This document shows, piece after piece, positions 2,717 through 56,943 of a stretch of DNA of 64,000 nucleotides (position 1 is its first letter; every line of letters begins with the position of its first letter). The DNA comes from Candidatus Aminicenantes bacterium. Its GTDB lineage: Bacteria; Acidobacteriota; Aminicenantia; Aminicenantales; JAFGBC01. The DNA lies in the NCBI GenBank assembly GCA_022867325.1, contig JALHUR010000084.1:6084-70083 (forward strand). The letters run 5' to 3'. A model generated the notes under the pieces. The model did not search any database. It saw only the letters and a program-made list of their open reading frames with translations, and had not been told where the DNA came from. Both the position numbers and the translations under genes were made by a program.

Positions 2717-2777
2717 ATCCAAATCATTGAATTCCGTCCTTGAATTTTCCCCCCTGATATTGTATTGTATCAGGGTT

Positions 2778-29171: not shown

Positions 29172-30050
29172 ATGAAACGCCTTCCAACCTTCATTTTCGC
29201 CATCAGCATGATCGTGACGGCCGGGCTCATCCCCGCCCTGCAGGCGGGAGGCCAGACGCCCCCGCCCCTCGCGGCTCAAGTCATCAAGCCCGGGCTCTAT
29301 TGGGTCGAGGGCGGAGCCGGCGCCAACACGGGCTTCTGGATCGGCAAGGACGCGGTCGTGGTCATCGACGCCAAGATGACTCCGGACGCGGCGCGCGAAA
29401 TGCTGGCCAAGATCAAGGAGCTGACACCGAATCCGGTCCAGTCTATCGTTTTAACCCACAGCGACGGCGACCATGTCAACGGATTGACCGGCTTTCCCCA
29501 AGGGCTCAAAATCGTGAGCCAGGAGACGTGCAAGACGGAACTCGAAGCGGCTTTCACGGATCCGGCCCTTCGCGCCTATCTGCCCACGGTCACTTTCAAG
29601 GACCGGATGGACCTTCTCCTTCCGGGAGGATCCATCCGGCTTCTCCATTTCGGCTCGGCCCACACCAGCGGAGACGCGATCGTTCTCTTCCCCGCCGAAA
29701 AAGTCGCGTTCATAGGGGATCTCGCCTTCATCGGGAGGGATCCCTTGATTCACAAAAGCAAGGGCGGGACATCGTTCGGATTGACCGCAACCTTGAAGTC
29801 CATCCTGGCGCTCGAGGCCGACACCTTCATCCCCGGTCACGGCAAACCCCTGGCCAAATCCGACATCGAGGGACTTCTCAAGAGCGTCGAGGACAAGCAG
29901 GCTCAAGTCAAGGACATGGTCGCCCGGGGGAAGTCCTTGGATGAGGTCAAGAAAGCGTTCGGCATCGAGGAGGAGACGGCGCAGCCGGGACGCCGGCGTT
30001 GGCCGAGCCTGGTCGAGGTCATTTATCTCGATCTGACGGAGAAAAAATAA
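29172..30050 (+). CDS. secreted MBL-fold metallo-hydrolase
   Basis: AGGAGA RBS. Signal peptide MKRLPTFIFAISMIVTAGLIPALQA. Metallo-beta-lactamase motif LTHSDGDHVNG plus HTSGD and PGHG. Confidence 0.8.
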   Translation: MKRLPTFIFAISMIVTAGLIPALQAGGQTPPPLAAQVIKPGLYWVEGGAGANTGFWIGKDAVVVIDAKMTPDAAREMLAKIKELTPNPVQSIVLTHSDGDHVNGLTGFPQGLKIVSQETCKTELEAAFTDPALRAYLPTVTFKDRMDLLLPGGSIRLLHFGSAHTSGDAIVLFPAEKVAFIGDLAFIGRDPLIHKSKGGTSFGLTATLKSILALEADTFIPGHGKPLAKSDIEGLLKSVEDKQAQVKDMVARGKSLDEVKKAFGIEEETAQPGRRRWPSLVEVIYLDLTEKK

Positions 30051-30082
30051 CGAAGTTCGCCGCGGTCGTCGGGGAGGATCCC

Positions 30083-40978: not shown

Positions 40979-41632
40979 ATGAAAAACCCGAGGATCGCCG
41001 TCTGCGTCTTCGCCGTCCTGGCCGTTTCCGCCGCCTGCGGCGTGAATATGATGCCGTCCAAGGACGCCTGGTATACCCAGCATTATTTCGTGATGCAGGA
41101 CTTCGAACGCCAGGCCTATAAGGACTTTTCGCCCCAGGCGCGGATCGAATTCCAGAAAATTTTCTGGGAAGCCCGCGAGCTCGGCTCGAAGAAAGAGTTT
41201 GAAAAGCGGATGGACTATATCCAGAAAACCTACAAAAGGGACAACAGCCAGCAGCCCTGGAACTGCGACCGGGCCCGAATCTTTCTTCTCAACGGACCTC
41301 CCGCCTCCATCGACTATAAGCAGATGGACGACTGGGCGACCAACGTCACTCAAGGAGCGGCTCGCACCAATGCCTCGACCGACCGGTCAAACGAGGACAT
41401 CTCCGCCACCTCGGCCGAAATCTGGACCTATCCCTACAATAATCAGTTCGTCCAATATGCCTTCGCTTTTAAGCCGCCGAACGAATGGCGGCTGGCCCCG
41501 GCCGCTTTCGCCGGCAACAGGTTTATCGGAGCCCTGGAAGCCCTGAACAAGGAACAAGTGTACGGGGTATTGAATTTAGACCAATATCAACGCCGGATCG
41601 AAGAATTGAAGAAAATTAAGGACGTTAAATAA
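40979..41632 (+). CDS. GWxTD-domain protein (small secreted paralog 1)
   Basis: AGGAGGG RBS and signal peptide MKNPRIAVCVFAVLAVSAACG. Shares the block ...W.[SC][DE]..RI(Y/F)..G.P... with the two downstream GWxTD paralogs. Confidence 0.55.
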   Translation: MKNPRIAVCVFAVLAVSAACGVNMMPSKDAWYTQHYFVMQDFERQAYKDFSPQARIEFQKIFWEARELGSKKEFEKRMDYIQKTYKRDNSQQPWNCDRARIFLLNGPPASIDYKQMDDWATNVTQGAARTNASTDRSNEDISATSAEIWTYPYNNQFVQYAFAFKPPNEWRLAPAAFAGNRFIGALEALNKEQVYGVLNLDQYQRRIEELKKIKDVK

Positions 41633-41645
41633 CGCTCGATTGTTT

Positions 41646-41808
41646 TAATCCCCTTCGAGGGATTCCACGGACGTTAGTCCATGGAGGAACCCCCTTTCGG
41701 GGGCTGGCAGCGATTTTGCAGTGCCCTTGAACCGGAAACGGTTCGTGTGCGCGCTCCGACGCCTGCAAAGGGTAGATCCCATGGACGTAAGTCCGTGGAG
41801 CTTCAGTA
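41646..41808 (+). repeat. palindromic mosaic repeat, family B copy 2
   Basis: Begins 14 nt after the GWxTD1 stop. attccacggacgttagtccatggag ... gaaccgGAAAcggttc ... gcgcgctccgacgcctgcaaagggtagatcccatggacGTAAgtccgtggagcttcagt. Confidence 0.7.
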
Positions 41809-41914
41809 GATGTTCCAAGATTCATTTAATTGGATAAATACATTTTTTTGTATTTCGTTCCCCCCAACGTTTTCCTAAACTATTGAATATATTTAAATTA
41901 TCTTTCCAATTTTT

Positions 41915-41930
41915 TGGCATGAATATTGCT
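41915..41930 (+). promoter_or_regulatory. sigma-54 (RpoN) -24/-12 promoter TGGCAT-N5-TTGCT inside a 300-bp AT-rich island upstream of the TBDR-like gene
   Basis: ttTGGCATgaataTTGCTtaaa matches the TGGCAC-N5-TTGCW spacing exactly. Lies about 190 nt upstream of ATG 42120. Local GC is far below the window average. Confidence 0.4.
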
Positions 41931-42119: not shown

Positions 42120-45100
42120 ATGCGTAAATCATGGACTTTAGCTTTGCTTGCGCTCCTCCTGGTCGCCGGATTCGCTTCAGCCCAGGGCCGCCCTGAAGGC
42201 AAGTTCGTCGGCAAAGTCAGCGACGATCAGGGCAACCCGCTCCCCGGCGTCACGGTCGAGGCGATAAGCCCCAAACTGGTCGGTAAAGCGGCGACGGTCA
42301 CGGATCAGACCGGAACCTTCCGGCTGTTCCAGCTGCCTTCCGGGCTGTATGAAATCAACTTCACCCTGCCCGGGTTCAAAACGATGTCCCGTAAGGACGT
42401 CGTCCTGCAGCTGTCGCAGACCGTGACCCTCAACATCACGATGGAGCCGTCCACTCTCGAAGAGACGGTGACCGTCATCGGGATGAGCCCCCTGATCGAC
42501 GTCAAGAGCACGGTCAAGGGCCAGACTATGACGCGGGAAGTGTTCATGAAGCTTCCCAAGAGCCGGAACTTCGACGGCCTGCTGAGCACGGTCCCCGGCG
42601 TTCAGTATGACAACGTCGGAGGCGGCCTGCTGGTCGACGGCGCCACCGGTACCGAGAACATGTGGTACATGGACGGCGCCGACGTCACCCAGCCGCATAT
42701 CGGAACCCGGGCCCAGAGCGTGGTCATGGAGATCATCGAGGAGGTCAAGGTTACGGCCTCCGGGTACAATGCCGAGTTCGGCGGCTCGATGGGCGGCGTC
42801 GTCAACGTCGTCACCCGTTCGGGCGGCAACGCCTTCCACGGCGATGCCATCGGCTATTACGAGGGCAACAGCCGGCTGATGCAAGGCAAAGCCCGCGATT
42901 ACGGCCGCTGGAATCCCTACGACGACGAGATCTATGAGTACGTCAACGAAGACGACCTTTATTTTGACGGCGGCAAGAAGCGGGATGTCTATAATCGCTT
43001 CGAGGGCGTCTTCAACCTGGGCGGCTATATCATGCGGGACAAGCTGTGGTTCTTCGCCTCCTTCAACCCCCAGTACAGCCACCAGACGTTCGACCGGTAC
43101 TTCCTGAGCGAACAGGGCAAGCCGATTCATCAATTCAGGAGAAATTGGAACTGGTGGAACGGCCAGGTCAAGGTAACGGCGGCCCCGCTGGCCGGGATGC
43201 GCTTGAGCGCCAGCTTCGTCAACAATTTTTCCAAGTACAGAGGCGGGGGCAATAACGATCGTAGCGCGAACGGGATGCCGAGCCTCGCCGGCACGAGCAA
43301 CGCCACCTACAAATGGGACCAAGAAGGCTATGACTATCCCAACTGGAGCGCGGCCTTCCTGCTGGACTACAGCATCAGCAACTCCCTGCTGCTGAGCATG
43401 CGCGGCGGCTACCACATGCAGGACACGGCGAACCAGCAGATCAAGAACGACTTCACCACCTATTATTTCAACCAAAGCAACTACGGCTATAAGAGCGACC
43501 CGTTCTTCATTGCGAATCCCAATCTGCTCGGCTACGCCGGAACCGCCAACTATGGCGGCAGCACCATGATCACCGAACGCTACAAATTGGAGAAGTACTC
43601 CGGCAACTTCGACCTGTCCTACTATCTCAACCTGGCCGGCGATCACGCCTGGAAGGCCGGCCTGCAGTGGATCCGCGACGCGGAAGACGTCTTCAACGGC
43701 CGTCCCAAGCCTATGGTCAACATCTATTGGGGCCGCGGATACTACGGCCTGGCCAGCGGCGAGCCCGTTCTGGGCACCTACGGCCATTACGAGATCCGGA
43801 GCGGCTGGACGTCGCCCTACGGCTATGTCTGGAAAATTCAAAGAGACAGCTGGTCCCTCTATCTCCAGGATTCCTGGACGATCGGCAACAAGCTGACCGT
43901 CAACGCCGGTCTCCGGACCGAAAGCGAGTACATCCCGGCCTTCACCGCCGACACGGCCCTGGTAGGCTACCAGGCCAAACCCATCAAGTTCGGTTTCGAC
44001 AAGAAGCTGGCTCCCCGCCTCGGCGCCGTCTATGACGTCTTCGGCGATTCCACCCTGAAGATTTTCGGCAGCTTCGGAATCTACTACGACGTCATGAAGC
44101 TGTACATGGCCGAGGGCGCCTTCGGCGGCTTCAAGTGGAAAACCGACTATTACGAGCTGAACAACCCGAACTACCTCCTGATCGCGGCCAGCGGAACTCT
44201 GGATGATCGGGCCAGTCAGGAAGCGGGTGGACGGTACGTCGGCACCATGGATTGGCGCATCCCCTCCTGGGACACGACCGATCCCGACATGCTGCCCGTC
44301 TCCCAGAGAGAAATCTCGTTGGGCGCCGAGTACAAGCTCGCCGAGAACGTTTCCCTGTCGGCCCGCCTGGTCCAGAAGCACCTCATGCGGACGATCGAGG
44401 ACATCGGAGTCCTGACGCCGGCAGGCGAGATGTACTACAACGCCAATCCCGGTTTCGGGTGGTCTCGCAGCATCAAGAACGGCGGGAAGTTCGACGACAT
44501 GTACTGGGAGTGTCCCAAGGCCACGAGAGAGTACTACGGAATGAACCTCTCTCTCGAAAAGCGGTTCAGCAACAACTGGCAGGGCGGCGTCAACTACACC
44601 CTGAGCCGCGTCGCCGGCAATTACGGCGGCCTGTCGTCCCCCGACGAGGTCAACCGGAACTCCCCGAACGTCGAGCGCTATTTCGACCTCTGGTTCATGG
44701 CCTATGATCTGAAGGGCAATGTCCTCGACGGCCCGCTGCCCCAGGACAGAAGCCACTACGTCAAGGCCTACGGCTCCTACGCCTTCCCGTTCGGGCTGAC
44801 GGTCGGCGTCGTCGGCTATGCCAGAAGCGGCATGCCGTTGACAACCGAGCTCTTTGCCAACAACGTCTCGGGATATTATCCCAACCAGCGCGGCGACCTC
44901 GGCCGCGCGCCCTGGACGGTCTGGGCCGACGTGTACATGGAATACACGTTGAACCTCGGCCGGAACACCCTCAACTTCAACGTCCAGATAAACAACATCA
45001 CCAACACCAAGACGTGGCAGTGGTACAACAACCGCATCAACAGACTCTCCATGCGCATCACCGACGAGGAGATCCTGAGCAAGACGTTCGACTGGCAGTC

Positions 45101-45197
45101 CAGGGTCGCCGACTACTGGCCCAACGCTTCGTTCAACAAGCCGAGCTGGCAGTTCGGAACCTGGTCGGCCCGCGTCGGCACCCGGTTCTCGTTCTAA
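42120..45197 (+). CDS. TonB-dependent receptor-like outer membrane protein with N-terminal carboxypeptidase-regulatory-like domain
   Basis: AAGGAG RBS and signal peptide MRKSWTLALLALLLVAGFASAQG. CarbopepD_reg-like block GKVSDDQGNPLPGVTVEAISP...TGTFRLFQLPSGLYEINFTLPGFK. Plug-like region, then about 1025 aa barrel ending ...VGTRFSF. Confidence 0.75.
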   Translation: MRKSWTLALLALLLVAGFASAQGRPEGKFVGKVSDDQGNPLPGVTVEAISPKLVGKAATVTDQTGTFRLFQLPSGLYEINFTLPGFKTMSRKDVVLQLSQTVTLNITMEPSTLEETVTVIGMSPLIDVKSTVKGQTMTREVFMKLPKSRNFDGLLSTVPGVQYDNVGGGLLVDGATGTENMWYMDGADVTQPHIGTRAQSVVMEIIEEVKVTASGYNAEFGGSMGGVVNVVTRSGGNAFHGDAIGYYEGNSRLMQGKARDYGRWNPYDDEIYEYVNEDDLYFDGGKKRDVYNRFEGVFNLGGYIMRDKLWFFASFNPQYSHQTFDRYFLSEQGKPIHQFRRNWNWWNGQVKVTAAPLAGMRLSASFVNNFSKYRGGGNNDRSANGMPSLAGTSNATYKWDQEGYDYPNWSAAFLLDYSISNSLLLSMRGGYHMQDTANQQIKNDFTTYYFNQSNYGYKSDPFFIANPNLLGYAGTANYGGSTMITERYKLEKYSGNFDLSYYLNLAGDHAWKAGLQWIRDAEDVFNGRPKPMVNIYWGRGYYGLASGEPVLGTYGHYEIRSGWTSPYGYVWKIQRDSWSLYLQDSWTIGNKLTVNAGLRTESEYIPAFTADTALVGYQAKPIKFGFDKKLAPRLGAVYDVFGDSTLKIFGSFGIYYDVMKLYMAEGAFGGFKWKTDYYELNNPNYLLIAASGTLDDRASQEAGGRYVGTMDWRIPSWDTTDPDMLPVSQREISLGAEYKLAENVSLSARLVQKHLMRTIEDIGVLTPAGEMYYNANPGFGWSRSIKNGGKFDDMYWECPKATREYYGMNLSLEKRFSNNWQGGVNYTLSRVAGNYGGLSSPDEVNRNSPNVERYFDLWFMAYDLKGNVLDGPLPQDRSHYVKAYGSYAFPFGLTVGVVGYARSGMPLTTELFANNVSGYYPNQRGDLGRAPWTVWADVYMEYTLNLGRNTLNFNVQINNITNTKTWQWYNNRINRLSMRITDEEILSKTFDWQSRVADYWPNASFNKPSWQFGTWSARVGTRFSF

Positions 45198-45236
45198 GCT
45201 CGAGCTGAAGCAGGACACGCAGAAGTAGAAGCACAA

Positions 45237-45273
45237 ACCCCGTCCCGCCCTTCGGCGGGGCGGGGTTTTTTTT
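45237..45273 (+). terminator. rho-independent terminator after the TBDR-like gene
   Basis: ccccgtcccgcc-cttc-ggcggggcgggg followed by T8. Confidence 0.8.
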
Positions 45274-45286
45274 GTCGTCTCTTTCA

Positions 45287-45424
45287 CCCGTTCGCCGACG
45301 CTACGCCGCCCTGAAAGGCGGGGACGAGAAGCGAGGCTCAGGGTTAACTTCCGCGCTTCGGGGACAGGCGCTCCAACACCTGCAAAGGGCAGATCCCACG
45401 GACGTAAGTCCGTGGAGCTTCAGT
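45287..45424 (+). repeat. composite repeat: family A copy 3 fused to a short family B copy 3
   Basis: cacccgttcgccgacgctacgccgccctgaaaggcggggacgagaagcgaggctcagggttaac | ttccgcgcttcggggacaggcgctccaacacctgcaaagggcagatcccacggacGTAAgtccgtggagcttcagt. Confidence 0.7.
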
Positions 45425-45616: not shown

Positions 45617-47875
45617 TCACTTAGAGGGATTAGCTTCAAGCCTCTGAAGTTCGGCCCGGGCGGCCCGGATGCTCTTTTCAGGCTCGCCCCGCGGATCGTC
45701 CAGGTATAATTTCAGATAACGGACGGCCTCTCCGAAATCGCCCGTCTTACGGTAAGCGGTCGAAAGGTTATAATAAGCGGTAGGCGTGGGTTTCAGATAA
45801 ACGGCCTGTTTCAGGCTCTCGATCGACTTGGCGTAATCGCCGGAAAAGCCGTAGGCGATGCCCAAATACTGGAATAGGACCTGATCCTCCGGATAATCCA
45901 GGGTGAGCTCCTCGTAAGTCTCGATCGCTCGGTCGAGCCGTCCGCTCGAAGCCAGGTTGTTGGCGTAGCTCATGCGCAGGTACTTGTTTTCGGGCTCGAT
46001 GGCAATGGCCCGCTCGTAGAACGACCGCGCTTCGTCCTTGCGCCGCAGCGTATCCAGGACTCCGGCCGTGACCGTCAAGGCGTCCACATTCTTGGGGTTG
46101 ATCCTCAGAACCTCGGCCATCGTATCCAGCGCTTCTCCGAGGCGGTTGGTGACGAGATAGGTGTGCCCGAGTCGGGCCAGCAGGATCTCCGAGCCGGGGA
46201 TTTTTTTTATACCCGATTTCAGGGTTTGAACGGCCTCGTCGAATTTACCCCGGCGCGCCCGGCTCAGGGCCAGGTTGACGTAGGACGCCGGCGCGTCGGG
46301 AATGAGGTCCAGGAGTCGCTCATAGACGGCGGCCGCTTCGGCGTATCGCCCCTGGAATTCGAATCCCTCGGCCTGTTGAGTCAGACGCAGGACATCGGTT
46401 TTATCCTTGGGGTCGGGATAGGACGCGCGGGCGCCTCCGTCCGAGAAACTCGTGTATCCCAGCGAACGCAGGCGCTCCTGGACCTCGGCCGAGGGGGTTC
46501 GCCCCCCGGCCGACGCCAAGCCGGCGCCCGCCTTGACCAGCTCCTCCAGACGGGCATTCAGGTCCGAGGCCCGTTTGGCCGCCGAGGCGATGAGATTCCT
46601 GTTCTCGCCGGGATCGGCCGCCAAGTTGTAGAGCTCGGGCTTGGGAGCCCGGATGAACTTCCAATCCCCCCGGACCAGTCCGACGAGCTCCGACCAACCG
46701 TAGTTCTCCCTGGGATAGAAAGTTTCCAGATAAATGTCCAGGTCCTCGCGGCTTCGTCCCTCGATCGCGGGAATCAGGCTCTCCCCGGTCGTTCCGGCCG
46801 GCGCGGGAATTTCCAGGATATCCAGGATGGAAGGCATGATATCGATCAGCCGGACCCGGGATTTGACGACGGCCCGGGGAGGGATGCGATGATCGGCCAG
46901 GATTATCAGGGGGACCCGCATCGTCCCGTCATAGATAAAGATACCGTGCCCGGTCTCGACCTTCTCCCCGAAGGCCTCCCCGTGGTCTCCGGCCAGAACG
47001 ATCAGGGTCTTGTCCCGCAGCCCCTTCTCGGCGAGCTTGTCGACGACCCGGCCGACGTGAAAATCCATGAAAGCGACCTCTCCATCGTAGGGATCGGCGG
47101 CGAACTCCTCGCTGTAGGGCGGGGGGGGCTGGTAAGGAAGATGGGGGTCGAAAAAATGGACCCAAGCGAAAAATTGCGCATCGGCGTTCCGATCGAGCCA
47201 GCTCGAAAAAACGGCGCTGATCTGATCCGCTTTCCGCTCGGAGTTCAGCGGCTTGAAGGGAAGTCCGGTCTGAAAATTGTCGTCGTAGACGTCGAATCCC
47301 TGGCCGAGCCCGAACCTGGAATCGACCGAGAAGGAGGCTACAAAGGCGGCGGTCCGGAACCCCGCATTCTTAAGGACTTCGGCCAAGGTCTCCCACCCGG
47401 TCGCAAGCTCGTAGCTGCCGTTGTTGTGAACGCCGTGGGAGACCGGCGTCAACCCGGTCATGATCGAGCAATGCGAGGGGAGGGTCAGCGGAGCCGGGCA
47501 ATAGACGTTTTCAAACCGGACTCCCTTTCCGGCCAGACCGTCGATGTTCGGGGTCCTGCCCTTGGAATATCCGTAACAGCCGAGCCGGTCGGCCCGGGTT
47601 GTGTCCAGAGTGATGAGCAAAACGTTCAGCCGACCGTCCTTTTGGATTCGGGTCCGGCCGCCGGGACTGAAAACCACGAAAAGCGCTGCCGCCAGAGCCA
47701 TCACTCCGACGGCGATGAACGGGAGTTTCGAGACCGGGCGTTTTCGGGCCTCTCTCCCGCCGGCGAGCCGGGGAGCGGCCGGACCCGAGCGGCCGACCTG
47801 CGGACACGGCGCGCCGCTGGGATTGGGATCCGTCCGGCTCCTTCCGCGGCGGCGGGAGCGTCTTTTTTTTCCCAT
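45617..47875 (-). CDS. sulfatase-like hydrolase/transferase (alkaline-phosphatase superfamily) fused to C-terminal TPR repeats, N-terminal membrane anchor
   Basis: 752 aa. TM segment LPFIAVGVMALAAALFVVF. AP-superfamily core (LLITLDTTRADRLGCYGY...DHGE). No canonical CxPxR sulfatase motif. TPR-like C-terminal third. Confidence 0.7.
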   Translation of the reverse strand: MGKKRRSRRRGRSRTDPNPSGAPCPQVGRSGPAAPRLAGGREARKRPVSKLPFIAVGVMALAAALFVVFSPGGRTRIQKDGRLNVLLITLDTTRADRLGCYGYSKGRTPNIDGLAGKGVRFENVYCPAPLTLPSHCSIMTGLTPVSHGVHNNGSYELATGWETLAEVLKNAGFRTAAFVASFSVDSRFGLGQGFDVYDDNFQTGLPFKPLNSERKADQISAVFSSWLDRNADAQFFAWVHFFDPHLPYQPPPPYSEEFAADPYDGEVAFMDFHVGRVVDKLAEKGLRDKTLIVLAGDHGEAFGEKVETGHGIFIYDGTMRVPLIILADHRIPPRAVVKSRVRLIDIMPSILDILEIPAPAGTTGESLIPAIEGRSREDLDIYLETFYPRENYGWSELVGLVRGDWKFIRAPKPELYNLAADPGENRNLIASAAKRASDLNARLEELVKAGAGLASAGGRTPSAEVQERLRSLGYTSFSDGGARASYPDPKDKTDVLRLTQQAEGFEFQGRYAEAAAVYERLLDLIPDAPASYVNLALSRARRGKFDEAVQTLKSGIKKIPGSEILLARLGHTYLVTNRLGEALDTMAEVLRINPKNVDALTVTAGVLDTLRRKDEARSFYERAIAIEPENKYLRMSYANNLASSGRLDRAIETYEELTLDYPEDQVLFQYLGIAYGFSGDYAKSIESLKQAVYLKPTPTAYYNLSTAYRKTGDFGEAVRYLKLYLDDPRGEPEKSIRAARAELQRLEANPSK

Positions 47876-47919
47876 GGGACTGCCTGGTGGCGAGTGACGG
47901 CGGGCCGGCTCCGGACCCT

Positions 47920-48870
47920 TTATTTCTTGATGGAATCCAGGATGGCTCTGGCCTGGGCGGCCTTTTCGGCGTTGGACTCGAGCTTGATATACGCCTCGAG
48001 AGATTCGGCCGCCTTGGCCATGTCGCCCTTGTTGAGGTGGACGTACCCCATCTTGAGATAGGGATCGGGCCAGTCCGGCTTGATCCGGATGGCCAGATCG
48101 AAATACCGGACGGCCTCGTCGATCTGCTGATTGGAAAAACAGATCTCGCCCACGTTGTAGGCCAGATTCTCGTCCTGGGGATCGGTTTCGATCGACTGCT
48201 TGAAGTAGTTCTGGGCTTCGCTGAGGTTGTTCTGCCGCAAATAACAGAGTCCGACGGCGGCCAGCGCCTTGGCCGTCATGTTTTTCCCCATCGACGCGTC
48301 GTTCTTGGCCCGCTCGATAACCGTGTTGTAGTCGGCGATAGCTTTTTCGTATTCGGCCTTTTCCCGACGGCAGTCGCCGATATTGAGGATGACCTGATAG
48401 ACCGCGGGGTTTTTCTCCAAGAATTGCTCAAACATGAGGCGCGCCGTGTTGTACTTGCCGTCCGCGTAGAAAGCGTTGGCATCATCCAGGAGCTGCAAAG
48501 AGGAATCATCCTGAACCAGGCCGGACGACTTTTCGACCCTGGTCAATTTGACGTTCAGCCGGGGATTTTTGTCCAGCTGCCTGACGTAGTAGCTGACGCT
48601 AGCCGGCAGGTAACCCTCGGCGGAGGCCGTGATCGTCCAATTGCCGGTGCCGAGCCCGATGATCGACCACTCGCCCTTGTCGTTAGCGGTCGCTTCCTTC
48701 TTGACTCCGCCATCCTGCTGGAACTCGGCCAGGATCTTCGCGTCCGGGATCGGATTGCCGGCCAGGTCCTCGACGTTTCCGACCAGACGCGCTAATCCCA
48801 TCCCAGCCTGAGCCGAGGCGGTTCCGGCCGTCAGCACGACCGCGACCGCGATCGCGGCCGCGATTCTCAA
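47920..48870 (-). CDS. secreted TPR-repeat protein with carboxypeptidase-regulatory-like N-terminal domain
   Basis: Track ORF 47920..48903. Likely TTG start at 48870 giving signal peptide MRIAAAIAVAVVLTAGTASAQA. CarbopepD-like block LVGNVEDLAGNPIPDAKILAEF, then TPR repeats. Confidence 0.55.
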   Translation of the reverse strand: MRIAAAIAVAVVLTAGTASAQAGMGLARLVGNVEDLAGNPIPDAKILAEFQQDGGVKKEATANDKGEWSIIGLGTGNWTITASAEGYLPASVSYYVRQLDKNPRLNVKLTRVEKSSGLVQDDSSLQLLDDANAFYADGKYNTARLMFEQFLEKNPAVYQVILNIGDCRREKAEYEKAIADYNTVIERAKNDASMGKNMTAKALAAVGLCYLRQNNLSEAQNYFKQSIETDPQDENLAYNVGEICFSNQQIDEAVRYFDLAIRIKPDWPDPYLKMGYVHLNKGDMAKAAESLEAYIKLESNAEKAAQARAILDSIKK

Positions 48871-48916
48871 CCCGTTTTCATTTTCATCCTCTCCTCCCTG
48901 CACTCGGCGTTATCAA

Positions 48917-49819
48917 TTATAAAACAAGTTTCGCCTTTTTTTCAATGCGAGCCCCGGGAAAAACGTTAAGAAGCGTAATGCGGAGATCATACTCTCCCCG
49001 AGGAAGTTTGATCGGAACCTTGATTAGGTACGTCTCTCCGCGGATTTTCATGAATTCATCCTTGGAGAACGAGAGCGGATAGCTCTGCTCTTCCTGCCAA
49101 GCCCGCGCTCCGGCGGCGTCGGTCGCTTCGACCGAGAGTCGAAGCGTCGTCGTCATCCGGTCGCCGTCGAGATTGAGCCAGATATCCTTGTAGGGAAGCT
49201 TAACCAGGACGATGGCCTCCCCCGGCCCGGCCTTTTGAATTTCCAACAGCACGTCCTTCATCCAGGAATCCGAGCCGACCTTCGGCCTGAGCATGACCTG
49301 GGTCTTGGTCATTTCGCCGATCTGGGCGGCGCTCTGCGGATCGAGCCGGTAGTTGCCGGTCCAGTTGTCGTCGACGAACATGACGGGGAAGAAACCGTAA
49401 TACCAGACCTCGGTCGGTTTCCCATAGAAAGTGACTCCGCGCGGATAGGTCACCCGGTTCTCGGGCGGTCCGAGCGTAATATACAGCCTGCCCCGTTCGC
49501 TCATCCAGCCGGGTGTCGTCCCCTCCTTGAACAGGAAATTGGCCCCGTCGATCCGGGCGAAATATTCGATCTTGAACTCGTTGGCCTCGGTGTCCGGGTC
49601 GGGATCCCGCTTCTTCCAGAAATCCTCGCTAAAGGCCTTTCGGTCTTCCGGATCGGCCAAACCGAGGAAGGCCGTTCGTTCGTCTTTGCCGATCAGGTAG
49701 CGGACCTTGGACAGGAATTCCCTGCTTTCGGGGTCGAGAGAACCCAGCGCCGGCCGCAAGAAGCAGGCCAAGCTCAGGCAGATGCCCGCCAACACCAGCC
49801 CCCAACCTGTTTTCCTCAT
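48917..49819 (-). CDS. GWxTD-domain protein (paralog 2)
   Basis: Start ATG 49819 (MRKTGWGLVLAGICLSLACFL) forms an ATGA overlap with the upstream gene stop. Motif GTTPGWMSERGRLYITLGPP. Confidence 0.55.
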   Translation of the reverse strand: MRKTGWGLVLAGICLSLACFLRPALGSLDPESREFLSKVRYLIGKDERTAFLGLADPEDRKAFSEDFWKKRDPDPDTEANEFKIEYFARIDGANFLFKEGTTPGWMSERGRLYITLGPPENRVTYPRGVTFYGKPTEVWYYGFFPVMFVDDNWTGNYRLDPQSAAQIGEMTKTQVMLRPKVGSDSWMKDVLLEIQKAGPGEAIVLVKLPYKDIWLNLDGDRMTTTLRLSVEATDAAGARAWQEEQSYPLSFSKDEFMKIRGETYLIKVPIKLPRGEYDLRITLLNVFPGARIEKKAKLVL

Positions 49820-51882
49820 TTTTTTTCCTTGTGCGACTTGACCACAGCCTTGATCGTGTCCTGATTGGGGTTGATCTCGAGAGATTTTTCGTAGGCGAGC
49901 AGGGCCTCGGGAATATTGACCAGCTGGCGGTAGCAATCTCCTATGCTGTTGAGAATATTCAAGTTGGTCCCGAGGCGAACAAGATAGTCCTTGTAATACG
50001 CGATGGCCTCCGCGAATTCGCCCAAGGCATGCGAGGATTGGCCGAGGAGCTCCAAGAAATCAAACTTCTGCATGTCCCTGACGAAGGGCAGGGCGATTGT
50101 CTTTACCTGGAGATAGTCCTGGGCCTTATACAGGAACCGGCAGTAATCGAGGGCGAAGGCCGGAGAAGCCGGATCCTTGCGGTAGGCTTGTTCGAGGTAG
50201 GCGCGGGCCTTGGTGGTATCCTTCACGTTCATGTACTGGATGCCCAAGGCGTTGAGCGTCTCGGCATCGTCGTCGGCCGGCTTGGGCATTGACAAAATCC
50301 AGGGCCGGGGCAGCGTCGGCACGTAGCTGATGTAGAAAAGGGCCTTATCCGAGAGAAGAACGGTTTGGCCTCCGTCGGACAGCGTGGCCGTGATTTCGTA
50401 GTTGGCCGGCGCGAGATCGGCCAGGCTGAATAGCTCCAGAATATTGAGCGGGTCGGGGATGTCGGCCAGTTTCCGTGTCCTCGACAGGAGCTTGGCGTCT
50501 CCCCTATGGAGCGCGAACTCCAGGCTGCCGTTCCGGCGAAGGTCCCCGCCCAAGCCCTGGAGTTGGATGAAAACGAAAAGCGTGTCCTTTGCGGTAAAAT
50601 CGTGCCGGGGGGAGGGAATGAGCTGGGCGCGCCCCAGCAGGAAAGGCTTGTTCTGGCCGACGTATTTCGAGTTCACGTCGGCCCGGCTGGCCAGCAGGAT
50701 CGGGCTCATTCTAAGATCCGCCCTATCCGGAACGGTGATCTCGGATTCCAACGAGGTGAATTCCTTGGAAACGGTGTTCTTGAAGAGAATGCTCAATTTG
50801 TAGCGCCCGGCGATGAGCGGCAGCATATCCTGGAAGCTGAAGAGCTTAGGACGGATCGCCGCGATCTGATCCCGGTTCATTTCGATCGGGGCCTTGCGCT
50901 CGAATTGATAGACAAGATTCCCGTTGGGGTCCGTGACGTTGCCGTTGATCTCGAGGTTGGACAGGAACCGATTATCGTACTGCTCGAAGGTTAGGCGGGC
51001 CGGCTCGATCAGATAGTGGACATAGAACAGACCGGTCGCATCCTGGAAGACCCGGACGAGGGCGTCGGAGTCCATGTAGTTGGCCGAGTACTCGACGTCG
51101 ATGATGTCTTTAAGGGCCAGCAGCTTTTCGGCATAGGAATCCTTGACCTTGACCATGGGGGCCATGGGGATTTTCTGATGGACGAGGGCCTCCGAGGCGA
51201 TCGAGGGGCTGGTGACATTTTGTGTTTCCCCTTCGATCAGGGTCAGAGAGATGTGGGCGATCGACGGTTCGATCCGGAACAACTGGTCGTAGGCCGTTGC
51301 GTATTCCGTCATGTCCCCGCTGTAATGGGGCATCAGGTACTGGGGGCCGAACCTGATCGGAGTGTACAGCTCGTACTCGCCGACGCCGTCCTTCTTGAAG
51401 AAGACGACGGAGAAGGCGTTGGGCAAACCGAACTCAAGCATCCCGCTGTAGAACCAGATTTCGATCGGATAGACCTCGCTCCGGTTATCGAAGCGATCGG
51501 TCGAATTCGGCTCGCCCAGCGTGATGTAGATCCGTCCCTGGTCCGACCGCCAGCCCGGCCCCGGAGAGCTCTTGCCGTAGCGTTCGTTGGCGAAGGCGAT
51601 CCGGCGCATGTGTTCGATCTTGAATTCGTTTTCGGGTGTCGCCGGGTTCGGGTCCCGCTGCTTCCAGAAGGCCTCGATGAACATCTCCCGCTGCCGGTCG
51701 TTGTCGAGCTGGAGGAAAACCTCTTTTTCCTTGGCGGTAATGATGAAAACCACCTCTTCCTGCAGCCATTTCCGGTAGAAAGGGCCCAAGTCCTTGACGG
51801 ACTTCTTCGTCTGCGCAAAGGTAGATATAATCGTAAAGACGGCAACCGCCCCGAGAACGCTGAGGACGAGGGTTTTCTTCAT
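49816..51882 (-). CDS. GWxTD-domain protein fused to C-terminal TPR repeats (paralog 3)
   Basis: Start set at ATG 51882 to give signal peptide MKKTLVLSVLGAVAVFTIISTFAQT (track ORF extends to 51960). Motif GPGWRSDQGRIYITLGEP. TPR-like C-terminus. TATAAT lies 8 nt upstream of the ATG. Confidence 0.55.
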   Translation of the reverse strand: MKKTLVLSVLGAVAVFTIISTFAQTKKSVKDLGPFYRKWLQEEVVFIITAKEKEVFLQLDNDRQREMFIEAFWKQRDPNPATPENEFKIEHMRRIAFANERYGKSSPGPGWRSDQGRIYITLGEPNSTDRFDNRSEVYPIEIWFYSGMLEFGLPNAFSVVFFKKDGVGEYELYTPIRFGPQYLMPHYSGDMTEYATAYDQLFRIEPSIAHISLTLIEGETQNVTSPSIASEALVHQKIPMAPMVKVKDSYAEKLLALKDIIDVEYSANYMDSDALVRVFQDATGLFYVHYLIEPARLTFEQYDNRFLSNLEINGNVTDPNGNLVYQFERKAPIEMNRDQIAAIRPKLFSFQDMLPLIAGRYKLSILFKNTVSKEFTSLESEITVPDRADLRMSPILLASRADVNSKYVGQNKPFLLGRAQLIPSPRHDFTAKDTLFVFIQLQGLGGDLRRNGSLEFALHRGDAKLLSRTRKLADIPDPLNILELFSLADLAPANYEITATLSDGGQTVLLSDKALFYISYVPTLPRPWILSMPKPADDDAETLNALGIQYMNVKDTTKARAYLEQAYRKDPASPAFALDYCRFLYKAQDYLQVKTIALPFVRDMQKFDFLELLGQSSHALGEFAEAIAYYKDYLVRLGTNLNILNSIGDCYRQLVNIPEALLAYEKSLEINPNQDTIKAVVKSHKEKK

Positions 51883-51970
51883 TTGATTATTATAGGCAAT
51901 ATTCGTCGCTTCTTCAAGAAGCTTCCGATCCGCCGCCTGCATCCGATGAGTCTGGGACAAGGGCCGCCGA

Positions 51971-53696: not shown

Positions 53697-54169
53697 GCCG
53701 GTTTTCTCCTGAAAAGAACGATAAGGAGGAGGCAGGCGCCGATCGAAATGCAGGAATCGGCGAGGTTGAAGATCGGCCAGTGCCAGCGCTTGATGTAGAC
53801 GTCCATGAAGTCGATGACCGAGCCGCGCAGGATCCGGTCGACGTTGTTGCCGACGGCCCCGGCCAGGATCAAGGACAACGCGGCCAGCATCAGGACGTCC
53901 CGGCCCGGAGTCTTTATGAAATAGAAGACGACCAGCCCCAGGGCCAGGAAAGACGCCAGGGCCAGAATCCAGCGAAAGGCCGGGTTTCCGGCGTGGGACA
54001 GAAAGCCGAAGATGGCCCCGTCGTTGCGATTATAGGTAAGGTTGATAAACCCCCGGATGATGGGCCGGCTTTCATAGAGGGTCATGCTCTTGGCGATCAG
54101 GGACTTGGTCCATTGGTCCAGGACGACCGTAAGGCCGATCAATCCCAGGGCGAGTCCTTTCCGTTTCAC
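53693..54169 (-). CDS. lspA: lipoprotein signal peptidase II
   Basis: GTG start at 54169 overlapping the ileS TGA (GTGA). LspA motifs NRNDGAIFGF, FNLADSCISIG. Track ORF extends further upstream but would overlap ileS. Confidence 0.75.
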   Translation of the reverse strand: MKRKGLALGLIGLTVVLDQWTKSLIAKSMTLYESRPIIRGFINLTYNRNDGAIFGFLSHAGNPAFRWILALASFLALGLVVFYFIKTPGRDVLMLAALSLILAGAVGNNVDRILRGSVIDFMDVYIKRWHWPIFNLADSCISIGACLLLIVLFRRKPA

Positions 54170-56943
54170 GTCCGATTCCCTTCCAGGACTCCGGAGCAGC
54201 GACTGCAGCAGTTGGGAAAAGCCTTGGACAAGCCGACCGTCGTTGCGTAGTTCCAGCAGCGCTCGCATTTCTCCCCCGGGGCCCGGCCGACCCGGACCTC
54301 CAGCTCCGGGCCTCCCCCCTCCCCGAGCGTCACGGCCGAAACGATGAACAGGGCCGGGAGGGCGGCCTCGTGCTTTCGGAGAAGCCCGAGCTGGGCTTGG
54401 GGCGCGGCCAGGCTCAGCGACGCCTCGAGCGAATTCCCGATGAGTTTGTCCACACGGGCCTTCTCGAGCTCCTTGAGGACCTTCTCCCGGACGGCCATCA
54501 GAGCTTCCTGTTCGTTGAAGGGGTCCGGTTCGAGCCATCTTTCCTCGAAAGCGGGAAACAATCCCAAGTGGACGGACTCCGTTTTGCCGGAGAAAGCCGG
54601 CATGGCCTCCCAGGCCTCTTCGGTCGTGAAGGGGAGGATGGGCGCCATGAGGGCCAGCGTATCCTTAAGGATCCGGAACAGGGCCGTCTGGGCCGAACGC
54701 CTAAGGCGCGACTTTTTGGCCGAGCAGTAGAGCCGGTCCTTGATGATGTCGAGATAGACGGCGCACATCTCGACCGTGAAGAACTGGTAAAGGGAGTGGA
54801 AAACGACGTGGTACTCATAGTCTTGGTACCCCTGCAGGATGCGTCGGCCGGTCCGGGCCGTCGTCTCCAGCGCCCAGCCGTCGAAGATCTCCATCTCGGC
54901 GGCCGGGACGGCATCGGCGGCCGGGTCGAAATCGTAGAGGTTGCCGAGCAAGTAGCGCCAGGTGTTGCGGATCTTGCGGTAGGCCTCGACCAGGCGCTGG
55001 AGGATCTCGGTCCCGAACCGGGCGTCCTCCTTGAAGTTCAGCATGGCGACCCACAGCCGCAGGATCTCCGCCCCGTTCTGGGCGATGATCCGGCCGGGAT
55101 CGATGACATTCCCCATCGATTTCGACATCGCCCTCCCCTGCTCGTCCAGGACAAAGCCGTGGGTGATGCAAGTCCGGTAGGGCGATCCGCCTTTGGCTCC
55201 GACTCCGATCACGATCGAGCTGTTGAACCAGCCCCGGTACTGGTCGTGACCCTCGACGTAGACGTCGGCGGGCCAGGGCAGGTCGGGCCGTTTGCCCAGT
55301 TCGCCTTGGCTGGCCCCGGATTCGAACCAGACGTCGATGATGTCGTTGGCTTTTTCGAACTCCGCGGCGCCGCAGGAGGCGCAGGACGTTCCCCGGGGGA
55401 TGAGATCCCCGGCCGGCTTGATGTACCAGGCGTTCGAACCCTCCCTTGAAAAGACATCGGCGACGTGGCGGGCGATGCTGTCGCCGGCCACGACGGCCCC
55501 GCATCGGACTCAGTGAAAGGCCGGGATGGGTACGCCCCACAGGCGCTGGCGCGAGATGCACCAGTCGGGGCGGCCGCTCATCATATTGGCGATCCGCTCC
55601 TCGCCCCAGGCCGGAATCCAGCGGACCTTGCCGACCGCTGCCTGGGTTCGATCCCTCAGGCCGGCCGCGTCCATCGAGATGAACCATTGCTCGGTGGCCC
55701 GGAAGATGACGGGGTTCTTGCAGCGCCAGCAGTGGGGGTAGGAGTGGCTGATGGCTGTTTCCTTGAGGAGGCTCCCGTCCTTCTTCATGTCTTCGCTGAT
55801 GGGCTTATTGGCCTTGAAAACGTTGAGGCCGGCGTACTTGGCGACGTCGGGCGTGAAGTTCCCGGCGCCGTCGACGGGCGTGTAGATGTCGAGGCCGTAA
55901 GCCATGCCGGTCAGATAGTCGTCGTGGCCGTGTCCGGGCGCGGTGTGTACGGCGCCCGTCCCGTCCTCGAGAGTCACGTAATCGCCCAGGACGAAGACCG
56001 ATTCCCTGTCGATGAAGGGATGGCGGGCCTTGAAGCCCTCGAGTTCGCCGCCCAGGAAAGTCGCCAGGAGCTTAGTTTCCTTGAATCCGAGCTCTTCGGC
56101 CACCACCGGGACGAGGCGCTTGGCCAGGAGATAAACTTCGGCGCCGACCTCGACGGCCGCGTACTCGTGCTCGGGATGGAAGGCGATGGCCAGGTTGGCC
56201 GGCAGGGTCCAGGGCGTCGTCGTCCAGATCAGGACGTAGACCGTCTTTCCTTTGAGGGCCGGCGCTTTGGCGGACAGGTCGGAGACGACCGGAAACCGGA
56301 CGTAGATCGAAGGCGACGTCTTGTCCCTATACTCGATCTCGGCCTCGGCCAGGGCCGTTTGACAGTGGAAGCACCAATGGACCGGCCGCTTCCCTTTATA
56401 GACATTGCCCGAGGCAAAGAAAGCGGCCAGGTAGCGAATCGTCTCGGCCTCGTACTCGGGATTCATGGTCAGGTAGGGCGTTTCCCATTCGCCCAGGACG
56501 CCCAGCCGGATGAATTCGGAGCGCTGGATGTCGATGTATTGAAGGGCGTACCGCCGGCACTCTTCGCGGATCTGGGTGATCGACATGGATTTCTTTGCGT
56601 CGCCCAACTGCTTGTCGACCTGGATCTCGATCGGCAGGCCGTGGCAGTCCCAGCCGGGCAGGTAGGCGGCCTGGAATCCCTGCATGCTCTTGGTCTTGAC
56701 GATAAAATCCTTTAGGATCTTGTTGAGGGCCGTCCCGAGGTGGATGTGGCCGTTGGCGTAGGGAGGCCCGTCATGGAGGACGAAGCAGGGGCGGCCTTTC
56801 CGGGATTCCAGGATTTTCTTGTAGAGACCGATGGCGTCCCAGGCCTTGATGATTTCGGGTTCGTTCTGGGCCAGCTTGGCCTTCATCGAGAAAGACGTCT
56901 GGGGCAGGTTCAGGCTGAGCTTGAGATCCTTGTCGTCCGACAT
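54166..56943 (-). CDS. ileS: isoleucine--tRNA ligase, interrupted by a single in-frame TGA at 55510-55512
   Basis: ORFs 55510..56943 (HIGH-region half: PYANGHIHLG) and 54166..55491 (KMSKS half: KMSKSMGNV, C-terminal Zn-finger CERCW...CSRC) are in the same frame, 926 codons in total, with a coherent link ...WGVPIPAFH*VRCGAVVAGDSIARHVADVF. The stop sits where many IleS sequences have Cys (FYCExCG). Confidence 0.85.

What the first reader, a model, noticed from the sequence alone, without database searches (positions are those of the whole stretch)
45617..51960. Four-gene minus-strand operon of secreted GWxTD / TPR / sulfatase-like proteins next to a TBDR-like receptor
Genes run right to left: GWxTD-TPR (688 aa), GWxTD (300 aa, ATGA-coupled), CarbopepD-TPR (about 317 aa) and a membrane-anchored sulfatase-like-TPR (752 aa). 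A third, smaller GWxTD paralog (40979-41632) and the TBDR-like gene lie just upstream. Both repeat families flank the locus. GWxTD (TIGR04514-type) is a domain of unknown function. All three paralogs here share the block [GP]W.[STC][DE].[GA]R.[YF]I.LG.P, and all have signal peptides. TBDR-like importer, AP-superfamily hydrolase and TPR scaffolds together suggest an envelope-associated substrate capture or processing system, possibly for sulfated or phosphorylated glycans. This is a candidate uncharacterised system and not a known PUL type.
Basis: partly seen in the sequence, partly recalled or inferred. Interest (0 to 1): 0.6.

Follow-up and report, generated by a model that had tools for sequence, protein, structure and literature searches.

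The report
Conserved GWxTD/TPR partners of a TonB-dependent transporter
This is a real gene cluster of unknown function, conserved across the whole Aminicenantes class, that pairs a sigma-54-controlled outer-membrane TonB-dependent transporter with envelope proteins built on the uncharacterised GWxTD domain, and its "sulfatase" is not a sulfatase.

Summary
Four co-directional minus-strand genes are present: A (GWxTD-TPR, 688 aa), B (GWxTD lipoprotein, 300 aa, ATGA-coupled to A), C (CarboxypepD_reg-TPR) and D (membrane-anchored "sulfatase"-TPR). They lie tail-to-tail with an Oar-class TonB-dependent transporter (F) and a small GWxTD lipoprotein (E).

The synteny is real. In 80 Aminicenantes genomes, A precedes B in 58/65 loci, C follows B in 54/69, and F lies within 10 kb in 38/44. 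The arrangement varies between genomes. A-, C- and D-like genes also cluster with Oar-type TBDTs or ExbBD-TonB in distant Acidobacteriota.

New findings:
- F carries a class-wide conserved sigma-54 promoter with an upstream palindrome and an IHF-like site.
- A starts 6 nt after a TATAAT box, which suggests a leaderless mRNA.
- D has an invariant T-x-P-S-H motif (threonine nucleophile, NPP-like) in place of the sulfatase C/S-x-P-x-R motif.
- The GWxTD domain models confidently (pLDDT 91) but matches no solved fold.
- GWxTD recurs as the periplasmic part of BlaR1-type M56 sensors, once together with a TonB C-terminal domain.

No CAZymes and no SusD are present, so the sulfated-glycan PUL reading is not supported. 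My best reading is a TonB-dependent envelope transport module with GWxTD/TPR accessory proteins. The substrate is unknown.

The parts
49816..51882 (-). Gene A. Secreted protein with a type-I signal peptide. It has an N-terminal GWxTD domain and a beta-sandwich (aa 1-373, paralogous to B), about 170 aa of unassigned sequence, and C-terminal TPR repeats (aa ~540-688).
   Evidence: Pfam and NCBIfam. hhalign of A against the B family gives probability 100% and E = 2e-39. TPR-only PDB matches fall at aa 540-688. More than 120 orthologues at 54-91% identity.
51889..51917 (-). Sigma-70-type promoter TTGAAG-17-TATAAT. Its -10 box ends 6 nt before A's ATG, which implies a leaderless transcript for the A-B-C-D operon.
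   Evidence: The same geometry (-10 box 5-9 nt before the start codon, mode 6 nt) occurs in 41/54 orthologous loci. The transcript itself is inferred, not shown.
48917..49819 (-). Gene B. Lipoprotein with a GWxTD domain (aa ~27-185) and a C-terminal Ig/FN3-like beta-sandwich (aa ~190-300). It is translationally coupled to A through an ATGA overlap.
47920..48903 (-). Gene C. Secreted protein with an N-terminal CarboxypepD_reg (transthyretin/Ig-like) domain followed by TPR repeats. The N-terminal domain is 33% identical to the N-terminal extension of transporter F. The likely start is GTG 48903 or TTG 48870.
   Evidence: C lies directly downstream of B in 54/69 loci. A promoter-like TTGAAA-18-TATAAT lies at 48945-48916.
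45617..47875 (-). Gene D. Alkaline-phosphatase-superfamily enzyme anchored in the inner membrane by a single N-terminal hydrophobic segment, with its catalytic domain in the periplasm and C-terminal TPR repeats. It has a threonine nucleophile (T131 in TLPSH) and intact metal ligands (D91, D297, H298).
   Evidence: D is present in about half of the orthologous loci, either after C or downstream of F on F's strand.
42120..45197 (+). Gene F. Oar-subclass TonB-dependent transporter: signal peptide, CarboxypepD_reg N-terminal extension, candidate TonB box (EETVTVIG), plug and large beta-barrel.
   Evidence: The subclass definition comes from PMC6434023. F is convergent with the operon in 33/44 loci and present within 10 kb in 38/44. 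The background of other Oar-like genes is low.
41915..41930 (+). Sigma-54 promoter (-24/-12 elements), TGGCATGAATATTGCT, about 190 bp upstream of F's start codon.
   Evidence: An exact consensus lies upstream of 39/48 F homologues.
41819..41834 (+). Putative enhancer-binding-protein site (UAS), ATTCATTTAATTGGAT. It matches the class-wide palindrome ATYCAA-N4-TTGRAT and lies about 96 bp upstream of the -24 element.
   Evidence: With at most 1 mismatch the palindrome is found in 37/40 promoter regions, mostly at -60 to -180. Density there is 3.0 per kb against 0.09 per kb overall. Its function is inferred.
45235..45268 (+). Intrinsic terminator after F: a 15-bp G+C-rich stem followed by a T run.
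40979..41632 (+). Gene E. Small (217 aa) divergent GWxTD lipoprotein. It is found inside the cluster in variable positions in other genomes.
   Evidence: A Cys is present in the signal peptide of 13/13 orthologues.
41751..41807 (+). REP-like 57-nt intergenic repeat containing a hairpin. A second copy lies at 45368-45424, so the two copies bracket gene F.

Best explanation
The locus encodes a conserved envelope module built around an Oar-class TonB-dependent outer-membrane transporter (F).

**Expression.** F is switched on from a sigma-54 promoter by an unidentified enhancer-binding protein. The accessory operon A-B-C-D is transcribed from a strong sigma-70-type promoter, probably as a leaderless mRNA.

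**Proposed roles of the proteins.**
- A (secreted) and B and E (lipid-anchored) carry the GWxTD domain. This is a periplasmic domain of new fold that I interpret as a ligand- or partner-binding module.
- A, C and D carry TPR arrays that would assemble the proteins into one complex.
- C adds a free copy of the transporter's N-terminal-extension fold.
- D, anchored in the inner membrane, is a threonine-nucleophile phosphoesterase or phosphotransferase that would act on what the transporter handles.

**What is shown.** The genes, the domains, the conserved linkage, the promoter elements, the D active-site motif and the lipoprotein signals.

**What is inferred.** Physical complex formation, GWxTD as a binding module, the direction of transport (I favour import), and a phosphoester-bearing substrate.
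For: **Linkage.**
- Among 80 species-level genomes, A-B is conserved in 58/65 loci, B-C in 54/69, and F lies within 10 kb in 38/44. The order is rearranged between genomes: convergent, divergent, or with D moved behind F.
- Only 7 other Oar-like genes occur in 1.13 Mb of flanking sequence.

**Beyond the class (distant Acidobacteriota).** A-like genes lie beside:
- an Oar-type TBDT (L091);
- a TBDT followed by a D-like gene with a TFPSH motif (L093);
- a C-like gene (L094);
- ExbB-ExbD-ExbD-TonB (L092).

**Domain fusions.** At least 12 representative proteins are BlaR1-type M56 proteins carrying 2-3 GWxTD domains. One has a TonB C-terminal domain as well, and one lies next to a BlaI-type repressor.

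**Regulation.** The sigma-54 -24/-12 elements, the UAS palindrome and the IHF-like site are conserved.

**Individual proteins.**
- F has an N-terminal extension, a TonB-box-like motif and a plug.
- C's N-terminal domain is 33% identical to F's N-terminal extension.
- D's catalytic residues are invariant.
Against: - No experiment exists, and no paper mentions GWxTD.
- The GWxTD fold has no solved relative, so its activity cannot be read from structure.
- D is absent from about half of the loci, so the phosphoester step cannot be essential to the module.
- No inner-membrane permease, TonB/ExbBD genes or enhancer-binding protein lie in this window or in the Aminicenantes loci.
- The accessory operon and F use different promoters, so they may not be co-expressed.
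- Class-wide conservation at near-housekeeping rates fits an envelope-maintenance role at least as well as nutrient uptake.
Confidence: 0.45

Rival explanations
1. Envelope maintenance or export machine. The module is a housekeeping trans-envelope complex in which the Oar-class transporter exports or places a protein or envelope component, as Oar does for PopC in Myxococcus. The GWxTD/TPR proteins would be its periplasmic chaperones or adaptors, and D would modify an envelope lipid or glycan as LtaS-, EptA- and YejM-type threonine enzymes do.
For: - Oar-subclass architecture of F.
- The cluster is present class-wide, apparently once per genome, and diverges at near-housekeeping rates: A 58%, F 67% and D 65% identity against nadC 61% and ileS 68-73%.
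- A-D has a constitutive-looking promoter.
- VWA, transglutaminase-TPR and LptFG genes are neighbours in some loci.
- No catabolic genes lie in the cluster.
Against: - F sits behind a regulated sigma-54 promoter, which is unusual for a housekeeping exporter.
- No candidate cargo lacking a signal peptide is encoded.
- D has one membrane segment, not the five of LtaS, EptA or YejM.
- Nothing here was tested experimentally.
Confidence: 0.25
2. One reading: a PUL-like capture and processing system for sulfated or phosphorylated glycans.
For: - A TBDT with a CarboxypepD_reg N-terminal extension, as in SusC.
- Secreted or lipoprotein binding-type proteins with Ig-like domains.
- An AP-superfamily hydrolase.
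- Inducible transporter expression.
Against: - D lacks the formylglycine motif.
- No SusD-like protein, glycoside hydrolase, lyase or sugar permease lies in the cluster in the window or in about 90 loci.
- The cluster is conserved across a whole class rather than varying by strain.
Confidence: 0.07
3. A signalling module. GWxTD proteins sense an envelope or periplasmic signal, as in the M56-GWxTD sensors, and regulate F or other genes rather than taking part in transport.
For: - Recurrent BlaR1-type M56 fusions with GWxTD.
- A BlaI-type repressor is a neighbour of one of them.
Against: - A, B and E have no transmembrane or output domain.
- No kinase, enhancer-binding protein or anti-sigma factor lies in the cluster.
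- Three paralogues plus TPR scaffolds look structural.
Confidence: 0.1
4. Not a system. The genes are neighbours by descent only.
For: - All Aminicenantes loci come from one class, so shared ancestry inflates the counts.
- The upstream context (ileS-lspA-lgt-rluD) is indeed only locally conserved.
Against: - The linkage survives rearrangements of order and strand.
- It survives 40-50% protein divergence.
- It recurs in distant Acidobacteriota with different neighbours.
- A and B are translationally coupled.
Confidence: 0.03

Closest known systems
Oar-subclass TonB-dependent transporters (Myxococcus xanthus Oar; PMC6434023)
   Same: F has the same architecture: signal peptide, PF13620 N-terminal extension, TonB-box-like motif, plug, and a large barrel of about 1000 aa. 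In distant relatives the cluster lies beside ExbB-ExbD-TonB, as oar does.
   Different: No PopC-like cargo is encoded. F is sigma-54-controlled and is tied to GWxTD/TPR proteins that are not described for Oar. F has no detectable sequence match to any solved TBDT.
SusC/SusD polysaccharide utilisation loci of Bacteroidota
   Same: Both combine a TBDT carrying a carboxypeptidase-D-regulatory-like N-terminal extension (whose function is unknown but which is essential in SusC, PMC7782687) with lipoproteins and TPR-type helical proteins encoded alongside.
   Different: There is no SusD family protein, no CAZymes and no hybrid two-component or ECF regulator. The accessory genes are on a separate, oppositely oriented operon. 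The cluster is conserved class-wide.
BlaR1/MecR1-type M56 signal-transducing metalloproteases
   Same: In relatives, tandem GWxTD domains occupy the extracytoplasmic position that the penicillin-binding sensor domain holds in BlaR1, next to a BlaI-type repressor.
   Different: The window's A, B and E have no M56 domain and no membrane-spanning region. They are soluble or lipid-anchored.
Alkaline-phosphatase superfamily: S1 sulfatases versus NPP-type phosphodiesterases
   Same: D has the sulfatase-family fold (PF00884, E = 8e-46; best PDB matches are sulfatases) and intact metal ligands. Its nucleophile motif, T-L-P-S-H...TG..P..HG, resembles the NPP/autotaxin signature T-F-P-N-H...TG..P..HG. 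That comparison rests on my own knowledge. The PF01663 hit (62 bits) is.
   Different: D has no Cys or Ser for formylglycine, so it is not an S1 sulfatase. Unlike NPPs it is membrane-anchored and fused to TPR repeats. Unlike LtaS, EptA or YejM it has one membrane segment rather than five.

Membership tests
GWxTD domain family (TIGR04514 / PF20094) | Score above the curated cut-off of the family model | tested here: met
   - A: 112 bits in NCBIfam and 39.5 in Pfam.
- B: 101 bits in NCBIfam and 41.4 in Pfam.
- E: 33.6 bits in NCBIfam only, with no Pfam hit.
- Cut-offs are 28 (NCBIfam) and 26.9 (Pfam).
GWxTD domain family (TIGR04514 / PF20094) | The name-giving GWxTD motif | tested here: inconclusive
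   A has GWRSD, B has GWMSE and E has PWNCD. The G-W and the acidic position are kept in A and B. E is a degenerate member that also lacks the RDPxPxTxxNE loop.
S1 formylglycine-dependent sulfatases | C/S-x-P-x-R motif providing the formylglycine nucleophile | tested here: not met
   The aligned position reads T-L-P-S-H (alignment to 7oz8). T-x-P-[SA]-H holds in every full-length D-type sequence of the alignment (40 of 42 rows; the two without it are truncated ORFs), window included, and in the distant L093 homologue.
S1 formylglycine-dependent sulfatases | Sulfatase-fold catalytic domain with metal-binding Asp and His residues | tested here: met
   PF00884 at 157 bits. D91 is kept in 39 of 42 aligned sequences, and D297 and H298 in all 42.
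NPP-type (PF01663) threonine-nucleophile phosphodiesterases | Thr nucleophile in a T-x-P-x-H context, and a family model hit above cut-off | tested here: met
   PF01663 at 62 bits against a cut-off of 23. The motif is conserved. The NPP signature used for comparison is from my own knowledge. Enzyme activity was not tested.
TonB-dependent transporter, Oar subclass | PF13620 N-terminal extension plus plug plus beta-barrel | tested here: met
   CarboxypepD_reg at 61.4 bits, Plug at 26.1 (cut-off 23.9) and OMP_b-brl_4 at 96 bits. PF00593 scores only 21.2, below its cut-off of 27. The definition is from PMC6434023.
TonB-dependent transporter, Oar subclass | Functional TonB box and energisation by TonB-ExbBD | not testable with these tools
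   The candidate box EETVTVIG lies between the N-terminal extension and the plug. No tonB or exbBD genes are in the window. They are adjacent to the A-like cluster only in L092.
SusC/SusD-type PUL | SusD-family lipoprotein adjacent to the TBDT, and CAZymes in the locus | tested here: not met
   No SusD or glycoside-hydrolase family hit for any cluster protein in the window. None appears in the gene tables of the related loci.
Sigma-54-dependent promoter | -24 GG and -12 GC elements at the right spacing, conserved among orthologues, with upstream activator sites | tested here: met
   TGGCAT-N5-TTGCT lies at 41915-41930. The exact consensus is upstream of 39/48 F homologues. The UAS palindrome is in 37/40 regions and IHF-like sites were found in 15. 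The activator protein is not identified, and transcription was not tested.

The most novel reading that the evidence does not exclude
GWxTD proteins, together with the free 'N-terminal-extension-like' TPR protein C, would be a previously unrecognised class of periplasmic partners of NTE-bearing (Oar/SusC-type) TonB-dependent transporters. They would couple the transporter's N-terminal extension and the TonB system to periplasmic processing or signalling. This would give the first functional handle both on a family of more than 10,000 clusters with a new fold and on the unexplained essential NTE domain.
Probability: 0.15. Interest if true: 0.8.

Novelty: new variant of a known kind. Interest (0 to 1): 0.55.

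Why it matters
- GWxTD is a large family with no literature. It has 10,710 clusters at 50% identity with E <= 1e-3, and no paper mentions it. A confident model of the domain has no solved structural relative.
- This locus gives the family a concrete, testable context. It shows tight and evolutionarily robust linkage to an Oar-class TonB-dependent transporter, to TPR scaffolds and, elsewhere, to TonB/ExbBD and BlaR1-type sensors.
- Oar-class transporters dominate the outer membranes of Acidobacteriota and Myxococcota, and the role of their N-terminal extension is unknown.
- A dedicated partner set with a clean sigma-54 regulatory architecture would be a good entry point. The organisms involved are abundant in anoxic sediments and subsurface habitats but remain uncultured.
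- The work also corrects an annotation trap. The widespread 'sulfatase-TPR' proteins of this type cannot be formylglycine sulfatases.

Tried and rejected
- **Literature.** A search for 'GWxTD' returned nothing. The 'Aminicenantes' plus 'TonB-dependent' search found nothing relevant.
- **PDB by sequence.** Profiles of A and B returned only TPR hits or nothing. F matched nothing.
- **Rfam.** No RNA family was found on 40-53 kb.
- **Sigma-54 activator.** GAFTGA/ESELFGH motifs were searched in the window and in 87 loci. The single hit, on the strand opposite ileS, has no Pfam domain and was rejected as chance.
- **Link to lipoprotein processing.** The idea came from lspA-lgt lying just upstream. 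I rejected it because that context exists only in the closest relatives (L001, L009), while other genomes have nadB or aspS there.
- **P0392 as an A-B fusion.** I rejected this reading of the 988-aa protein. Only its N-terminal GWxTD domain aligns with B.
- **Second UAS-like palindrome.** The site at window 2716 has no sigma-54 site nearby, and I did not pursue it.
Full report
**1. What is in the sequence**

The region holds four co-directional minus-strand genes.
- A runs 49816-51882 and is 688 aa from its ATG.
- B runs 48917-49819 and is 300 aa.
- C runs 47920-48870 or 47920-48903, depending on the start codon.
- D runs 45617-47875 and is 752 aa.

A's TGA stop and B's ATG overlap as ATGA. 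The B-C gap is 14-47 nt, depending on which start C uses, and the C-D gap is 44 nt.

- A has GWxTD plus TPR.
- B has GWxTD.
- C has CarboxypepD_reg plus TPR.
- D has Sulfatase/Phosphodiest plus TPR.

On the plus strand lie E (40979-41632) and F (42120-45197). E is a weak GWxTD member that passes TIGR04514 only. F carries CarboxypepD_reg, Plug and OMP_b-brl_4. F is convergent with D and ends in a strong terminator.

Upstream of A on the minus strand are rluD, lgt, lspA and ileS.

The closest relatives are MAGs of Candidatus Aminicenantes.

**2. Is the cluster more than chance?**

Yes. I examined look-ups of B orthologues at 83%, 53%, 47% and 46% identity. All showed A-B-C, and all had an Oar-type TBDT nearby. 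The upstream context differed between them: ileS-lspA-lgt-rluD, nadB or aspS.

A scan of one genome per species returned 80 loci, all Aminicenantes-like. I ran tblastn of the window proteins against the non-redundant loci with enough flanking sequence.
- A lies directly upstream of B in 58/65 loci.
- C lies directly downstream of B in 54/69.
- An F-type transporter is convergent within 6 kb in 33/44 and present anywhere in the flank in 38/44.
- D is present in 22/44.

The arrangement is not frozen.
- F is divergent from A in some genomes (L047, L048, L052, L063).
- D sometimes sits behind F on F's strand (L007, L016, L035, L040).
- E moves around.
- In Saccharicenans-type genomes the cluster is split, with two transporter paralogues.

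The background is low. Only 7 other Oar-like genes occur in 1.13 Mb of flanks, against 53 F-type genes.

The cluster proteins diverge only slightly faster than housekeeping genes of the same genome pair. A is 58% identical, B 53%, C 59%, D 65%, E 52% and F 67%, against nadC 61%, ileS 68-73% and nadB 72%.

**3. Beyond the class**

I found full-length A-like proteins (25-29% identity) in high-GC Acidobacteriota. They sit in related neighbourhoods.
- In L091, the A-like gene is divergent from an Oar-type TBDT, with a small GWxTD gene nearby.
- In L093, an Oar-type TBDT is followed by a D-like gene, about 5 kb from the A-like gene. That D-like protein is 34% identical over 638 aa and has TFPSH and DTLRAD motifs.
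- In L094, a C-like gene is present, 28.5% identical over 298 aa.
- In L092, ExbB-ExbD-ExbD-TonB lies alongside.

These loci add FG-GAP/ASPIC, transglutaminase-TPR and Big_7-VWA genes. The association of GWxTD-TPR, CarboxypepD_reg-TPR, 'sulfatase'-TPR and Oar-type or TonB components is therefore older than the Aminicenantes.

**4. Regulation**

*Sigma-54 promoter of F.*
- An exact sigma-54 consensus, TGGCATGAATATTGCT, lies at 41915-41930, about 190 bp before F.
- The same consensus (TGGCAY-N5-TTGCW) lies upstream of 39 of 48 F homologues. The expected chance rate for a 700-bp region is about 1e-5, by my own calculation.
- Aligning these regions shows a 16-bp palindrome, ATYCAA-N4-TTGRAT.
- With at most 1 mismatch it occurs in 37/40 regions, and with at most 2 mismatches two or more copies occur in 35/40.
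- The copies are concentrated 60-180 bp upstream of the -24 element.
- Their density there is 3.0 per kb, against 0.09 per kb overall.
- A TTGATAAYAA-type, IHF-like motif lies at -40 to -80; 15 such sites were counted across the 40 regions.
- This is the canonical architecture of an activator-dependent sigma-54 promoter.
- No activator gene is nearby.

*Promoter of the A operon.*
- The A operon has a TTGAAG-17-TATAAT promoter whose -10 box ends 6 nt before the ATG.
- That geometry recurs in 41/54 orthologous loci, with a 6-nt gap in 25.
- This implies a leaderless mRNA. That is inference only.

**5. The proteins**

*Signals.*
- B has an invariant lipobox Cys, and E has a Cys in all 13 orthologues.
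- A and C have type-I signals.
- D has a conserved N-terminal hydrophobic anchor in 36/38 sequences.

*A and B as paralogues.* A and B are paralogous over A's first 373 residues (hhalign E = 2e-39).

*Structure of B.*
- The AlphaFold model of B has pLDDT 83.
- It shows a helical N-terminal domain with a small sheet, followed by an Ig/FN3-like sandwich.

*The GWxTD domain.*
- Modelled alone it reaches pLDDT 91.2 and pTM 0.83.
- It has no relative among solved structures.
- The family is large: 10,710 clusters at 50% identity.
- Among the top representatives, at least 12 are BlaR1-type M56 membrane proteases with 2-3 GWxTD domains in the position of the sensor domain.
- One of these also has a TonB C-terminal domain and comes from Candidatus Acidoferrales.
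- Another lies directly after a BlaI-type repressor.
- Other representatives combine GWxTD with Big_7 and VWA domains.
- I take this as evidence that GWxTD is a periplasmic recognition module. This is inference.

*C.* Its N-terminal domain is 33% identical to the N-terminal extension of F. That domain is essential but unexplained in SusC (PMC7782687).

*F.* It fits the Oar subclass defined in PMC6434023 and has a TonB-box-like EETVTVIG motif.

**6. D is not a sulfatase**

- In the alignment to choline sulfatase 7oz8, the formylglycine motif S/C-T-P-A-R is matched by T-L-P-S-H.
- T-x-P-[SA]-H, DT(T/L)R.D and GDHG are invariant or nearly so in 42 D-type sequences, including a paralogous subfamily.
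- A threonine nucleophile with this context is typical of NPP-type phosphodiesterases (own knowledge). PF01663 also scores 62 bits.
- D is therefore most likely an active phosphoesterase or phosphotransferase.

**7. Interpretation**

- The sulfated-glycan PUL idea fails on D's active site and on the complete absence of SusD-like and CAZyme genes.
- The best-supported reading is a TonB-dependent envelope module. It has an inducible Oar-class transporter and a constitutively expressed set of GWxTD/TPR accessory proteins, with an optional periplasmic phosphoesterase.
- The evidence does not settle whether the module imports a nutrient or serves export or envelope maintenance. I favour import at about 0.45. 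Oar's role in PopC secretion and the near-housekeeping conservation support the export or maintenance alternative, which I put at about 0.25.

**8. Novelty**

- The domains are catalogued, and TBDT loci with accessory proteins are a known kind.
- This particular partner set, its sigma-54 architecture and the M56/TonB fusions of GWxTD appear undescribed in the searched literature.
- I rate it a new variant of a known kind, of moderate to good interest.

Noticed in passing
window 55510-55512 (minus strand), within ileS (54166-56943): ileS is interrupted by an in-frame TGA. The codon aligns with the first Cys of the CxxC zinc motif: the window reads WGVPIPAFH*VRCG, while the 83%-related genome reads WGVPIPAFRCVRCG. 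It could be a sequencing error, a pseudogene or a selenocysteine codon. A downstream hairpin is not significant (z = -1.7)..
   Followed up: partly
window 33092, 33213, 41665, 41779, 45396: A REP-like hairpin, CCAYGGACGTWAGTCCRTGG, occurs at five intergenic sites. A 57-nt extended version brackets the transporter gene at 41751-41807 and 45368-45424. No Rfam family matches in the part scanned, 40-53 kb; the two copies near 33 kb lie outside it.
   Followed up: partly
window 51889-51917 (minus strand) and 41 of 54 orthologous loci: The -10 box of gene A's promoter ends 5-9 nt (mostly 6 nt) before the start codon. This points to a conserved leaderless mRNA in Aminicenantes.
   Followed up: partly
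window 2716-2731: This is an exact copy of the ATYCAA-N4-TTGRAT palindrome found upstream of the sigma-54 promoters. It lies just after an ORF ending at 2716 and before two small ORFs, and no sigma-54 consensus is nearby.
   Followed up: no
window 41705-41720: A second sigma-54-like site with one mismatch (TGGCAGCGATTTTGCA) lies 210 bp upstream of the exact one, among the REP-like repeats. I did not check whether it is conserved.
   Followed up: no
L006 4526-6396; L015, L022, L034, L039 (similar positions): Several Aminicenantes genomes carry a second, divergently oriented pair a few kb upstream of the main cluster. It consists of a B-like GWxTD protein (about 318 aa) and a C-like CarboxypepD_reg-TPR protein (about 305 aa). 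The B-C pairing is therefore itself duplicated as a unit.
   Followed up: partly
L092, L093, L094 (distant Acidobacteriota): A-like GWxTD-TPR genes there are embedded among repeated FG-GAP/UnbV_ASPIC proteins, transglutaminase-core-TPR proteins and Big_7-VWA proteins. This recurring larger neighbourhood has unknown function.
   Followed up: no
window 29999-33034 (+): A 1011-aa DUF5107 + TPR protein is encoded about 8 kb away on the plus strand. It is another large TPR protein of unknown function in the window.
   Followed up: no
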